Assembly: GCF_013167455.1 (NCBI RefSeq)
Contig: NZ_CP038328.1
Strand: one strand, 5' to 3'
DNA length: 64,000 bases
Origin: Escherichia coli O157:H7
GTDB lineage: Bacteria > Pseudomonadota > Gammaproteobacteria > Enterobacterales > Enterobacteriaceae
Shown here: in pieces, positions 9,001 to 15,000 of the stretch
Layout: every line of letters starts with the position of its first letter
Numbering within the stretch: position 1 is the first letter of the stretch
Program-made: the position numbers

Positions 9001-12000
9001 TAAACGCCGTTTTGCCGCTGCGGCTAAGTCCGGTTACGGCGAGGCGCAGATGTCTGTCGACACCCCGATTCACCAGCGCATTAAGTTCATTTTTAAGTCG
9101 CTTCATTGCTGTCCTGTGCTGCTCTGAAGACCAGAAAAAAATCATTCATAAGGATATGAATGTGGGGGCCAGGCCATTGATTATCAACTACCCGTGTTGT
9201 CATCGACGGGCGAACTCCATAAGATGTGCAGCATTCACGTTCGGACGGAGTTCCTGACCTATGTCCCCTACTATTTATGATATTGCCAGGGTTGCAGGCG
9301 TATCAAAATCCACCGTATCACGCGTGCTGAATAAGCAAACCAATATCTCCCCGGAAGCGCGCGAAAAAGTGTTACGGGCCATTGAAGAATTACAGTATCA
9401 ACCAAACAAGCTGGCCCGCGCGCTGACCTCTTCGGGTTTTGATGCCATTATGGTGATTTCTACCCGTTCGACCAAAACTACGGCGGGTAATCCGTTTTTC
9501 TCTGAAGTTTTGCATGCCATCACCGCCAAAGCTGAAGAAGAAGGTTTCGACGTGATATTGCAGACGTCGCACACCCCGGCAGAAGACTTACAAAAATGTG
9601 AAAGCAAAATTAAGCAGAAAATGATTAAAGGCATTATTATGCTAAGTTCGCCAGCGGATGAGTCATTTTTTGCCCAACTTGATAAATACGATATTCCTGT
9701 GGTGGTGATTGGCAAAGTTGAAGGTCAATATGCCCATGTTTATTCTGTCGATACCGATAATTTTGGTGACAGCATTGCGTTGACCGATGCGTTAATTGAA
9801 AGTGGACATCAAAATATTGCCTGTCTGCATGCACCGCTTGATGTCCATGTTTCAGTGGATCGGGTAAATGGTTATAAGCAGAGTCTGGAAGATCATAATA
9901 TTGCAGTGCGTGATGAATGGATTGTTGATGGCGGTTATACCCATGAAACAGCACTGCAAGCAGCACGGCAATTATTAAGTCAGTCACCGTTGCCTGAGGC
10001 AGTGTTTGCCACTGACAGCCTGAAATTAATGAGCATTTATCGTGCGGCGGCAGAGAAAAACATTGCTATTCCGCAGCAGTTAGCGGTGGTGGGTTATAGC
10101 AATGAAACGCTGTCATTTATTTTAACGCCTGCACCGGGCGGCATCGATGTTCCGACGCAGGAGTTAGGTCGACAAAGCTGTGAGTTATTATTCCGCTTAA
10201 TTGCCGGAAAACCGTCACCACAAAATATTACCGTTGCCACGCATATGACGCTGAAATAAATACCAGCGACCTTGCCTGAATGCCGGATGCGATGCTGGCG
10301 CATCTTATCCGGCCTACATTTATAGATCGGATAAAGTACTCGCGCCGCATCCGGCAATTTAGCCCATTATCAGAACGAGTAATTTACGCCGACACCTGCA
10401 TAATGGAATTTATCGCTGTCGCCTTCGTCGTGATCCTGCCACTCAAACGCGTATTCCAGCGAAATGGAAAGACCATTCTGGAAATCATAACCGTAAAATA
10501 AACCAACACGGTTAAAATCATGGCCTTCACGTTCAATATCATCCTGCCAGTCCCAGTTACTCCAGCGATCCAGCCCAATGCGCGTATACGGCGTCACCGA
10601 GTGGTTGCCGAGCGTCAGCGGCAAATAGGCGCGAATTTCTTGCGTGGAAAACTCACCGTTATTACGGCTGTCGTCCATATTGAAGCCGCGCTCGAGATAA
10701 TAGTTCACTCGCAAGGCAACCGTTTCGTTGAAGGTATATTGCAGACCTGTTTCCGTTTCGACACGGGTATCAGCGTAACCGGTCGTGTTCAAATCGTTGG
10801 CAAATTTATACATCGACAACCAACCGTTGAAACGTAAATCGTCAGTCAGTTTCACATCCCAGTCTGGCGCGATTTTCCAGCGCTGCATATTCGCCGTGTC
10901 TTTACCCGGTTCATCAACGTAGTGATAACCATAATTACGGAAACCGCCGGTCAGGCCGAAACTGAAATCATCGCTTTCGAGGAACTGATAATGTACCTCC
11001 AGCTCCGGGCGATCAAACCACGTTCCACGTTTACCCGCGCTATAATCTACCGGCCCTTCCTGATAATAGGCCAGAGAAATTCTCCACGGCCCGTTGGCGG
11101 CATTAAAATAGACAGAAGGCTCCGCCAGCCCATCCATATCTTCGCCATAACCCTCGACGTTTTCTATTTCGTACATCGCGCCGATATTAAAGTGCCAGTC
11201 GTTCTTTTCCTCGGCCTGTGCGCAGGCCATTCCCGCACACATCACCAGTGCGGTACAGGGTAATAACTTTTTCATTATTGTTCCTTGTATTATCCTGGGG
11301 GAATGCCTTCCCCCTGTATTTAGCGAATTGCTATTTCCGTTTCTGCATCAAAGAAATGACATTTAGTCATATCAAAATGAATAGTGATATTTTCTCCTGC
11401 ATGATAATCATTTAACGCACCAGCACGGACCACTAACTCGTGCCCCCCAACCGTGGTGTAGAGCATAAATTCCGCACCGGTTAATTCTACCACGCTAATT
11501 TTGGCGGAAATATTATTTTCCTCTTGCGCGTCCGGATGAATATCTTCCGGGCGCATTCCCATCACGATGGGCTTATGCAAACTTTCCTGTGTTTTCAGAA
11601 CCGCTAATTTCTCTTCGGGAATGGTTAATTTAAGCGTTTCCGTAACGAATTTATCGCCATCGATCGTGCCGCGAATAAAATTCATCGCTGGTGATCCAAT
11701 AAATCCGGCAACAAACATATTCGCGGGTTGGTTATAAACGGTTTTCGGCGCACCCACTTGCTGAACAATCCCGTCTTTCATAATCACAATCCGCGTCGCC
11801 ATGGTCATCGCTTCGGTCTGATCGTGGGTCACGTAGATCATGGTGGTGTTCAGTTTCTGATGCAGCTTGCTGATCTCTGCGCGCATTTGTACGCGCAGCT
11901 TGGCATCAAGGTTAGAGAGCGGTTCATCCATTAAAAACACGCCCGCTTCGCGCACAATCGCCCGCCCGAGCGCCACACGCTGGCGTTGCCCGCCGGAAAG

Positions 12001-15000
12001 CGCGCCCGGCTTGCGCTTCAGGTACTCACGCAGGCCGAGAATTTGCGCCGCCCAGTTCACCCGCTCATCAATCACCTCTTTGGCGATTTTTTGCATCTTC
12101 AGGCCAAACGCCATGTTGTCGTAAACCGTCATATGCGGATACAACGCGTAGTTCTGGAACACCATTGCGATATTGCGTGCTTTGGCTGGAACGTCATTCA
12201 TTCGTTTGCCGTCGATCAACAGATCGCCGCCGCTGATCTCCTCAAGCCCGGCAATCATGCGCAGGGTGGTCGATTTACCGCAGCCCGACGGGCCGACAAA
12301 TACGATGAACTCTTTATCGGCAATTTCCAGGTTGAAGTCCTTCACCACATGCACCTGGTTATCGTAGATTTTTTGAATATGTTGTAACGAAAGCTGAGCC
12401 ATGTTGATTCCTTTGCTATACGTTTTGCCAGAAGGCCGATAACCGCGGCCAGGTCAGGGAGTCCGTTGAGGGCAACAATAATTGCGCCCCGGTTAAGCCT
12501 GCGCCGATCCCCACCGAGCGCATACCGCTGGCGTTAATGGCGTCAATGCCCGCCTGCGCATCTTCAATGCCGATACATGCCTGCGGCGGCACGCCCAGCC
12601 CGGCACAGGCAGCGAGAAAGATTTCCGGATCCGGTTTCGAGTTTTTAAGTTGGGAAGCATCCGCGCAGAAGGTGAAAAACTCGCGCAGCTCCAGCGCCGC
12701 TAAAATCGTCGGCGCATTCAGGGAGACAGAAGCCAGCCCTACCGGGATCTGCTGTGCGCGGAGCTCTGCCAGCAAATTGCGAATACCGGGCAGCACAGCA
12801 TTAACCGTCAGCTCGCGCAGTGAGTGGACGTAAAGCAGATTTTTGCGATACGCCAGTTGCGTCCGCTCCTGCGGGTTAAAGTCGCCCTCTTTGCCCCCGT
12901 GTTGCAGAATGCGCCGCAGAGACTCATCGCGGCTGATCCCTTTTAGGGATTCGTTAAACTGCGCATCAATGCTGATGCCAATTTCAGCGGCAATCTGCTG
13001 CCACGCCTGGAAATGCAGATGCGCGGTATCGGTGATTACACCATCCAGATCGAAAATTACCCCTTGCAGTTTCATTCATCCTCCTGATGCGTGGTAGCGG
13101 TCCCATTGAAGGGCAAAATAAAATCACCCAAACAGAAAACAGATTCTTCAGCCACGGATATAAGCTGCCCGTTCAAACGCAGTGAAACGGGCGCAGAAGT
13201 TCGAATCGCAATACGCTGCGCGTCGAGCGTGACCTGTAATTCGCAGCCCTGCCAGAACAGAGGGAAAGACAACTGTTGCCACTGCTCCGGTAACGCCGGA
13301 TTGAGATGTAATTCACCGTCACGCACGCTCACCCCGGCAAAACCCTGAATCGCCCCCAGCCAGATAGCGCCAGTTGCGGCAGCGTGGATACCATCATCAC
13401 AACTATGCGGATCAGCACCAAGATCGATTTCAGTCCCCTCGCGCCAGAACTGATAACTTTGGGTCAGCAGGCCACAGCGTGCGGCAACAATGCCGTGGAT
13501 TGCTTTACTTAATGACGAGTCGTGAATAGTGCGCGGTTCATAAAATTGCAGATTGGCAAGACACGATACCGCTGAGAACTGCTCCGGCAGCATGTAATTG
13601 AGCATCACCACATCAGCTTGTTTGAGGATCTGCATCTCGTTCACTTCTGCGCGTGAATAATCCAGCAGAATGGTTTGCTTCCCCGCCGCCGCTTTGTATT
13701 TAGCCAGATTAATCGCCGGCTTAGCCATAAACGAATCATCCTGCGGCAAAACGCCATCGGGCTGCGTTTCTGGCATCCATAGCTCTTTGAGGAACATTTC
13801 GGCGCGATGGATAAACGCATCGTCGCTACAGCCGAACTGGCGGGCAATATTCAGCGCCTGTTGAACGTTGTAGCGGGCCATATAGCTGGTGAAGGCGTTA
13901 TTATTGACATGTTCGGTATATTCGTCTGGCCCAATAACATCATGAATTTCCAGACGGTCGTTAACCCTCACCGCGCGGCTAATCCAGAACTTTGCAGTTT
14001 CCAGAAGTAGCGCCATGCCTTCATGAGCAATGAAACTTTCATCCCCCGTGGTCTGCCAGTATTGAATAACCGCCCAGGCGATATCGGCCACCAGATGATG
14101 TTCCGCCTGCGCCGAGGCCACTTTTTGCCGCAGCCCGGTACGAATGTTAATGGCGGCAAATTCTGGCGTCTCTTCTTCGCCGCTGCGCGCGCTTTCCCAC
14201 GGAAATAGCGCGCCCTGCCAGCCGCTGCGCCGTGCTTTCTCCTGCGCGCCTGGCAAGTTGTGCCAGCGATAACGCAGTAAACTTCGGGCAACCGTCGGAT
14301 CGCTAAACAGATGGAACGGCAGCAAAAATACTTCTGTATCCCAGAAAACGTGGCCTTTGTAGCCTTCGCCGGTTAAGCCTTTTGCCGCAATACTGCTGCG
14401 CTCGTCGTGAGCCGGCGTCATGATGCGCAGATGATAAAGCGCATAATCTAACGCTTGCTGATCGTGCGCATCGCCGCCATTTACCGTGATACGACGTTTC
14501 TGCCACCATTGACGCCAGTTTTCTGTTGATGCTGCAAGAAGTTGGTCGTAACTCTGCTGCGCGCATATTTCAAGCTGGCGAAGCGACGCGCTGCCCCACT
14601 CGTCTAAAACGGCTTGCCTGTCATCCCGCCAGTCGATCCACACCAGTTTTTGCAACGTCACTGTCTCGCCTGCATGAAGCTGCGCACTGGTATGTTGCAG
14701 CAAACGGCGCTCTTTGGCGGTATAGCATTGCTGCACATCACCGCTCACCTTACAGCAACAGCTGATGGCCACATCACTGCGTCCATCCTGGGTGGTGTAG
14801 ATCCCCTGCATCAGATGCTGACCAAACACCCGCACCTGGGTTTCGTCGAGATGTTGGCGACCGTGGTTGGTTTGCGTGGCGTCGATACCTGTTGAAATCA
14901 GCACTGACGCGTCGGCGTCCAGTGGCGTAATAGTGATTTCCAGCGCAATGAGCGGCAGTTGGTCTGCCGAAACAAAGCGACGGCTGGCGATGGTGTAACC

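What the first reader, a model, noticed from the sequence alone, without database searches (positions are those of the whole stretch)
11320..12402. ycjV is intact here, although it is a pseudogene in K-12
The MalK-like ATPase gene encodes an uninterrupted 360-aa protein with all ABC motifs. My recollection is that K-12 MG1655 carries ycjV as a frameshifted pseudogene (with the ymjB fragment). The ATPase of the ycj transporter is therefore functional in this strain background, yet the permease and binding protein are inactivated by the events described above.
Basis: partly seen in the sequence, partly recalled or inferred. Interest (0 to 1): 0.25.

Follow-up and report, generated by a model that had tools for sequence, protein, structure and literature searches.

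The report
Intact ycjV; K-12 copy is frameshifted
The sugar-transporter ATPase gene ycjV is intact here, which is the normal state in E. coli: K-12 is the exception because it lost one G from a run of six, and in this O157:H7-type strain the intact ATPase has no working transporter partners.

Summary
Window 11320-12402 (- strand) is an uninterrupted 360-aa MalK/UgpC/MsmX-type ABC ATPase with every catalytic motif and a complete C-terminal OB/TOBE domain. K-12 MG1655 carries the gene as a 1082-nt "frameshifted" pseudogene, and the only indel is G6->G5 (window 11443-11448), which stops the K-12 product at residue 322.

It is not unusual, though. The exact G6 sequence is in 4379 of 4995 complete E. 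coli genomes that have the locus. The G5 allele is in 369, which are K-12 laboratory derivatives apart from 16 wild isolates carrying the same slip on another haplotype. RefSeq already annotates both states, and a full-length E. coli YcjV has been purified and shown to be ATPase-active.

"Therefore functional" is only partly supported. The gene is intact (dN/dS about 0.05 against K-12). In this window, however, ycjN has an amber codon (Q210*), ycjM is frameshifted, and ycjO is split by a 38-kb Mu-like prophage with 210 bp deleted. YcjV is therefore a stranded subunit whose expression was not tested. Already known; low interest.

The parts
11320..12402 (-). ycjV: intact 360-aa CUT1-type ABC importer ATPase (nucleotide-binding domain plus OB/TOBE regulatory domain)
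   Evidence: ORF and translation; Pfam and NCBIfam; PDB MsmX full-length match; motifs; RefSeq CDS WP_000057976.1 at the same coordinates in an identical genome
11443..11448 (-). G6 run (CCCCCC on the + strand), codons Gly319-Gly320. K-12 has G5 here, giving G319 G320 T S stop
   Evidence: Pairwise alignment with K-12. It is the only G or C run of 6 or more in the gene; two A6 runs also exist. Population counts
12416..13075 (-). ycjU/pgmB (beta-phosphoglucomutase), intact, immediately upstream of ycjV in the operon
   Evidence: ORF of 219 aa; annotation
13092..13105 (.). 14-mer TGGTAGCGGTCCCA in the 3' end of ycjT, 17 nt before the ycjU ATG; candidate YcjW operator
   Evidence: The identical 14-mer occurs only twice in the window. 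Both positions fit the two YcjW ChIP peaks reported in K-12 (PMC6599011)
60896..60909 (.). Second copy of the same 14-mer just upstream of ycjM; candidate YcjW operator at the main operon promoter
10370..11275 (-). ompG, intact, last gene of the operon
   Evidence: ORF of 301 aa; annotation
18290..19132 (-). ycjP permease, intact (280 aa)
   Evidence: same length as K-12
19119..19761 (-). 3' remnant of the ycjO permease gene
   Evidence: Collinearity with Xuzhou21 and K-12 stops at 19761
19762..57850 (+). Mu-like prophage of 38,089 bp inserted in ycjO. Its right end is truncated after 51 of 738 nt of mom, and 210 bp of ycjO are deleted
   Evidence: MuA, MuB, CI-type repressor and Com domains; 95% identity to 'inserted Mu-like phage' regions; comparison with strain F7508; junctions absent from 5426 genomes
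57851..57879 (-). 5' remnant of ycjO (29 nt)
57900..59192 (-). ycjN binding-protein gene with amber codon Q210* (CAG->TAG at 58563-58565)
   Evidence: Codon-by-codon comparison with K-12; annotated 'internal stop' in Xuzhou21; exact 71-mer in 265 genomes
59206..60884 (-). ycjM (glucosylglycerate phosphorylase) with a -1 frameshift near 60556 (codon ~110)
   Evidence: Alignment with K-12; annotated 'frameshifted' in Xuzhou21; exact 71-mer in 304 genomes

Best explanation
Window 11320-12402 holds the ordinary, ancestral allele of ycjV. YcjV is the ATP-hydrolysing subunit, working as a homodimer, of the YcjN (binding protein) / YcjO-YcjP (permeases) sugar importer. That importer belongs to the YcjW-repressed operon ycjMNOPQRSTUV-ompG for kojibiose and glucosylglycerate-type glucosides. 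The K-12 lineage lost one G from a G6 run in codons 319-320. This ends its protein at residue 322 and removes the second half of the C-terminal TOBE domain. The window comes from an O157:H7-type chromosome in which the ATPase gene has stayed intact while other parts of the system decayed. The ycjN amber codon and the ycjM frameshift are lineage-wide. The Mu-like prophage and 210-bp deletion in ycjO are strain-specific. YcjV can therefore very probably still bind and hydrolyse ATP if it is made, but it cannot assemble its own transporter and is a stranded subunit. Shown: the sequence states, the population frequencies and the partner lesions. Inferred: catalytic competence, loss of transport, and whether the gene is expressed at all.
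For: Intact ORF, motifs and domains. The K-12 gene is 1082 nt and annotated 'frameshifted', with a single G6->G5 indel. The exact G6 71-mer is in 4379 of 4995 genomes and the exact G5 70-mer in 369. All but 2 of the 60 G5 genomes listed are K-12-type laboratory strains or carry names I could not place. dN/dS is 0.04-0.05 against three other alleles, consistent with long-term purifying selection. A full-length E. coli YcjV (WP_000057985.1) accumulates as protein and retains ATPase activity (PMC7658222). Operon structure, YcjW repression and the two YcjW sites come from PMC6599011, and both candidate operators are present here. Partner lesions: ycjN Q210*, ycjM -1, ycjO split. The first two are shared by 265 and 304 genomes and annotated in Xuzhou21. 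The ycjO junctions occur in 0 of 5426 genomes.
Against: No expression or activity data exist for this allele. It differs from the other alleles compared at M283 and V305, both conservative changes in the regulatory domain. The low dN/dS mostly reflects history before the O157 lesions, so it does not show present-day constraint. Whether transcription reaches ycjV past the prophage is unknown, and the promoter scan found no more sites than chance. It has also not been shown that the truncated K-12 protein is inactive.
Confidence: 0.85

Rival explanations
1. YcjV is kept intact in O157:H7 because it energises other CUT1 importers (for example MalFG or UgpAE) as a shared multitask ATPase, so it still has a role without YcjN and YcjO.
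For: The best NCBIfam hit is the UgpC subfamily, above its cut-off (486 against 432 bits), and the protein is close to MalK. The closest solved structure is the multitask ATPase MsmX. The gene remains intact in the O157:H7-type genomes examined, although ycjN and ycjM lesions are shared by 265-304 genomes. From my own knowledge, MalK and UgpC have been reported to be interchangeable in E. coli.
Against: E. coli YcjV could not replace MsmX in B. subtilis and lacks the charged residues proposed as the multitask signature (PMC7658222). MalK and UgpC have their own genes. O157:H7 is a young clone, so an intact gene needs no selective explanation. K-12 and 16 wild isolates do without it.
Confidence: 0.07
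2. The difference is an artefact: a homopolymer miscall either in this window (really G5) or in the K-12 reference (really G6).
For: The lesion lies in a homopolymer, the typical site of long-read assembly errors. Some of the 16 wild G5 calls could be such errors.
Against: G6 is found in 4379 independent genomes and G5 in several hundred independently sequenced K-12 derivatives, including MG1655, DH5alpha, DH1, C600 and J53. RefSeq flags the K-12 gene as frameshifted in separate assemblies.
Confidence: 0.02
3. The G6 run is a contingency (phase-variable) tract that switches the ycj transporter on and off.
For: The same -1 slip occurs on at least three ycjV haplotypes (K-12, 08-00022, 2014C-3051) and in 16 wild genomes from cattle, humans and a wild bird.
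Against: A run of six is short for efficient slippage. Only about 0.3% of non-K-12 genomes carry G5, and nine or more of the 16 look like one bovine clone. The exact-match counts could not detect G7 alleles, so none were looked for. Assembly errors are not excluded.
Confidence: 0.03

Closest known systems
E. coli K-12 ycjV pseudogene with the ymjB fragment
   Same: Same locus, same neighbours (pgmB upstream, ompG downstream). 98.1% identical over the 1.7-kb region; the gene itself differs by 20 substitutions and one indel.
   Different: K-12 has G5 instead of G6 at codons 319-320. Its product ends at residue 322 and lacks about half of the TOBE_2 domain. K-12 keeps ycjM, ycjN and ycjO intact, whereas this window has lost them.
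Full-length E. coli YcjV (WP_000057985.1) studied by Leisico et al. 2020 (PMC7658222)
   Same: The same protein family member from E. coli, full length and ATPase-active in vitro.
   Different: A different allele from this window's WP_000057976.1. The exact residue differences were not checked, and the activity of this allele is untested.
MalK (E. coli) and MsmX (B. subtilis), CUT1-family ABC importer ATPases
   Same: The same two-part architecture: nucleotide-binding domain plus a C-terminal OB/TOBE regulatory domain. Full-length alignments give E = 1e-147 to MsmX and 4e-100 to MalK.
   Different: Not MalK itself: the MalK equivalog score of 431 is below the cut-off of 568. It is encoded in the ycj glucoside operon, and it cannot substitute for MsmX.

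Membership tests
ABC transporter nucleotide-binding domain (PF00005) | Walker A, Q-loop, LSGGQ signature, Walker B with catalytic Glu, D-loop and H-loop, all present and in order | tested here: met
   GPSGCGKS 37-44, Q83, LSGGQ 135-139, VFLMDE 155-160, SNLD 163-166, H193. PF00005 E = 1e-31, 110.6 bits against a cut-off of 25.
MalK/UgpC/MsmX-type (CUT1) sugar importer ATPase | Complete C-terminal OB/TOBE regulatory domain after the nucleotide-binding domain | tested here: met
   OB_MalK 236-288 and TOBE_2 282-351, both above their cut-offs. Alignment to MsmX covers residues 1-360.
MalK/UgpC/MsmX-type (CUT1) sugar importer ATPase | Whole-protein score above a curated family threshold | tested here: met
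   NCBIfam UgpC subfamily NF008653: 486.3 bits against a cut-off of 432. The MalK equivalog NF008233 scores 431.2 against 568, which is not met, so this is not MalK proper.
MalK/UgpC/MsmX-type (CUT1) sugar importer ATPase | Encoded with two permease genes and a binding-protein gene of the same system | tested here: met
   ycjN, ycjO and ycjP lie in the same operon, but here ycjN and ycjO are inactivated.
MalK/UgpC/MsmX-type (CUT1) sugar importer ATPase | ATP hydrolysis, and coupling of that hydrolysis to transport | not testable with these tools
   ATPase activity is reported for another E. coli YcjV allele (PMC7658222). I found no transport data for YcjNOPV.
K-12-type ycjV pseudogene allele | G5 run at codons 319-320 causing a -1 frameshift | tested here: not met
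   The window has G6 at 11443-11448.

The most novel reading that the evidence does not exclude
The intact YcjV of O157:H7 is not a leftover but an orphan ATPase that serves other sugar importers. It would be expressed from a YcjW-controlled entry point at the ycjT/ycjU junction, or by read-out from the prophage repressor gene. Alternatively, the G6 tract acts as a low-frequency on/off switch for the ycj system in natural populations.
Probability: 0.07. Interest if true: 0.4.

Novelty: already known. Interest (0 to 1): 0.1.

Why it matters
It matters mainly as a caution for people who use K-12. The model strain lacks a full-length ATPase for the ycj glucoside importer. This may contribute to the reported failure of MG1655 to grow on kojibiose as sole carbon source (PMC6599011). 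That link is my inference and has not been shown. Studies of YcjN and YcjNOPV done in K-12 should take it into account.

For this window the result gives a small picture of gene decay. K-12 and O157:H7 have each disabled the same transporter through different subunits, which suggests the system is dispensable in both lineages. Nothing here changes what is known about ABC transporters.

Tried and rejected
- **Promoter and terminator scan, 10200-21200.** Counts were no higher than in shuffles, so it gives no usable evidence on how ycjV is transcribed.
- **Literature on ymjB.** The name appears only as a gene in K-12 knockout and insertion lists. I found no paper describing the frameshift itself. 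The pseudogene status rests on the RefSeq annotation, my own alignment, and my recollection of the EcoCyc/EcoGene annotation.
- **Mukherjee et al. 2018 (PMC5953851).** The paper is not held, so I could not check whether the authors linked K-12's lack of growth on kojibiose to ycjV.
- **Sequencing artefact.** Rejected on the population counts.
- **G5 as a purely laboratory mutation.** Neither proven nor rejected. Sixteen wild genomes carry the same slip on another haplotype, but assembly errors in a homopolymer cannot be excluded.
- **My own errors, corrected.** My first dN/dS run reinserted the G at the wrong position and produced spurious differences; one search corrects it. My first estimate of the ycjO deletion (201 bp, junction at 19763) came from a spurious BLAST extension; base-by-base comparison gives 210 bp and a junction at 19761/19762.
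Full report
**Observation**

An ORF of 360 codons runs from ATG (12402) to TAA (11320) on the - strand. An AAGGA ribosome-binding site sits 7 nt upstream of the ATG. The window is an E. coli O157:H7-type chromosome. The 1.7 kb around the gene is 100% identical to strains Xuzhou21, 2017C-4109 and 140. Window 1-19761 is base-for-base identical to Xuzhou21. RefSeq annotates the same coordinates there as "ABC transporter ATP-binding protein", WP_000057976.1.

The protein has every ABC motif, in order:

| Motif | Sequence and position |
|---|---|
| Walker A | GPSGCGKS 37-44 |
| Q-loop | Q83 |
| Signature | LSGGQ 135-139 |
| Walker B | VFLMDE 155-160 |
| D-loop | SNLD 163-166 |
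| H-loop | H193 |

- Pfam finds ABC_tran (21-162), OB_MalK (236-288) and TOBE_2 (282-351).
- NCBIfam places it in the UgpC subfamily above threshold. It scores below the MalK equivalog threshold.
- It aligns end to end with B. subtilis MsmX (6yir, E = 1e-147) and with MalK.

**Comparison with K-12**

Global alignment shows 20 substitutions and a single indel. The run of six G at gene positions 955-960 (window 11443-11448, codons Gly319-Gly320) is five G in K-12. The K-12 reading frame then gives G319-G320-T-S-stop, a 322-residue product. That product lacks residues 321-360, about half of the TOBE_2 domain. The last 40 codons stay open in the other frame. By my recollection this is the piece annotated as ymjB; the name does occur as a K-12 gene in knockout and insertion lists.

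**How unusual is an intact ycjV?**

It is not unusual.

- The exact 71-mer spanning G6 occurs in 4379 of the 4995 complete E. coli genomes that have the locus.
- The exact G5 70-mer occurs in 369.
- All but 2 of the 60 G5 genomes listed are K-12-type laboratory strains (MG1655, DH5alpha, DH1, C600, J53, NCM3722 and others) or carry names I could not place. The two clear exceptions are 2014C-3051 and 08-00022.
- A haplotype-specific 181-nt query found exactly 16 non-K-12 genomes with G5, from cattle, humans, a wild bird and lettuce. Nine or more of them look like one bovine clone.
- Two of these, 2014C-3051 and 08-00022, are annotated "frameshifted". Their ycjV genes differ from K-12 at 21 and 5 positions.

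The G6 run is the only G or C run of six or more in the gene. It is evidently a weak slippage hot spot, although homopolymer errors in long-read assemblies cannot be excluded for the wild cases. The intact allele is ancestral and typical, and K-12 is the derived state. dN/dS between the window allele and three others is 0.04-0.05, as expected for a gene under purifying selection through most of its history.

**What the gene does**

The ycjMNOPQRSTUV-ompG operon is repressed by the LacI-type regulator YcjW, whose DNA binding is released by kojibiose in vitro. YcjT is a kojibiose phosphorylase, YcjM a glucosylglycerate phosphorylase and YcjU a beta-phosphoglucomutase (PMC6599011). YcjN (lipoprotein binding protein), YcjO and YcjP (permeases) and YcjV (ATPase) are the predicted importer. 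A full-length E. coli YcjV (WP_000057985.1) accumulates as protein and retains ATPase activity, but it cannot replace MsmX in B. subtilis (PMC7658222).

By analogy with MalK, which is established knowledge of the family, two YcjV subunits would sandwich two ATP molecules between Walker A/B of one subunit and LSGGQ of the other. This would drive the YcjO-YcjP permease pair, and the C-terminal domains would hold the dimer together. This is inference for YcjV itself.

**Context in this window**

The rest of the system is broken.

- **ycjN:** CAG->TAG at codon 210, window 58563-58565.
- **ycjM:** a -1 frameshift near codon 110, window ~60556.
- **Both lesions** are annotated in Xuzhou21. Their exact 71-mers occur in 265 and 304 genomes, against 359 genomes that are at least 99% identical to the window around ycjV. 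They are therefore features of the O157:H7 clade.
- **ycjO:** interrupted at 19761/19762 by a 38,089-bp Mu-like prophage. It encodes a CI-type repressor, MuA, MuB and Com. It is 95% identical to "inserted Mu-like phage" regions of Stx phages.
- **Prophage right end:** comparison with a full copy in strain F7508 shows it is cut after 51 of 738 nt of mom, and 210 bp of ycjO are missing. One deletion probably removed the right phage end together with host DNA. That is my inference.
- **Uniqueness:** neither junction occurs in any of 5426 complete E. coli genomes.
- **Intact genes:** ycjP, Q, R, S, T, U, V, ompG and ycjW keep their K-12 lengths.

**Consequences**

The YcjNOPV transporter cannot be assembled in this strain, so YcjV is an intact but stranded subunit. 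Whether it is even made is unknown, because the prophage lies between the main promoter upstream of ycjM and ycjV. Two possible routes remain, and both are inference.

- The identical 14-mer TGGTAGCGGTCCCA occurs only at 60896-60909 (upstream of ycjM) and at 13092-13105 (17 nt before the ycjU start). These positions match the two YcjW ChIP peaks reported in K-12. A YcjW-controlled entry point for ycjU-ycjV-ompG may therefore exist downstream of the prophage.
- The prophage repressor gene (20118-20729) points out of the left phage end, in the same direction as the ycj genes.

The consensus promoter scan gave nothing above chance.

**Comparison with the known, and verdict**

Both allelic states are already annotated in public databases, and the protein has been studied biochemically. 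K-12 (ATPase lost) and O157:H7 (binding protein, one phosphorylase and, in this strain, one permease lost) have disabled the same system through different genes. This suggests the system is dispensable in both lineages.

The practical point is that MG1655 lacks a full-length YcjV. This may contribute to its reported failure to grow on kojibiose, but that is my inference and untested.

Noticed in passing
window 19762-57850: A 38,089-bp Mu-like prophage (CI-type repressor, MuA, MuB, Com) lies inside ycjO. Its right end is truncated after 51 of 738 nt of mom and 210 bp of ycjO are deleted, so it has no right end and is probably immobile. Neither junction is present in any of 5426 complete E. coli genomes.
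   Followed up: partly
window 13092-13105 and 60896-60909: The identical 14-mer TGGTAGCGGTCCCA occurs only at these two places. They match the positions of the two YcjW ChIP peaks reported in K-12 (upstream of ycjM, and at the ycjT/ycjU junction). They are candidate YcjW operators, and the second could mark an internal entry point for ycjU-ycjV-ompG.
   Followed up: partly
L005 582-1663 and L006 582-1663, plus 14 other genomes: The same G6->G5 frameshift as in K-12 appears in 16 non-K-12 isolates on a different ycjV haplotype. This is either recurrent slippage at the run or homopolymer assembly error.
   Followed up: partly
window 57900-59192 and 59206-60884: ycjN carries Q210* and ycjM carries a -1 frameshift. 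Both are shared by about 265-304 genomes of the O157:H7 clade.
   Followed up: yes
window 745-1675, and roughly 800-2495: An alpha/beta hydrolase gene is split into two overlapping ORFs and is annotated as frameshifted in Xuzhou21. Most of this stretch, including an intact SDR oxidoreductase gene, has no counterpart in K-12, which keeps only short remnants.
   Followed up: no
window 11297-11314: A 7-bp GC-rich hairpin (GGGGGAA-TGCC-TTCCCCC) lies in the 44-nt spacer between the ycjV stop and the ompG start. On the coding strand it is not followed by a T run, so it is not a typical terminator.
   Followed up: no
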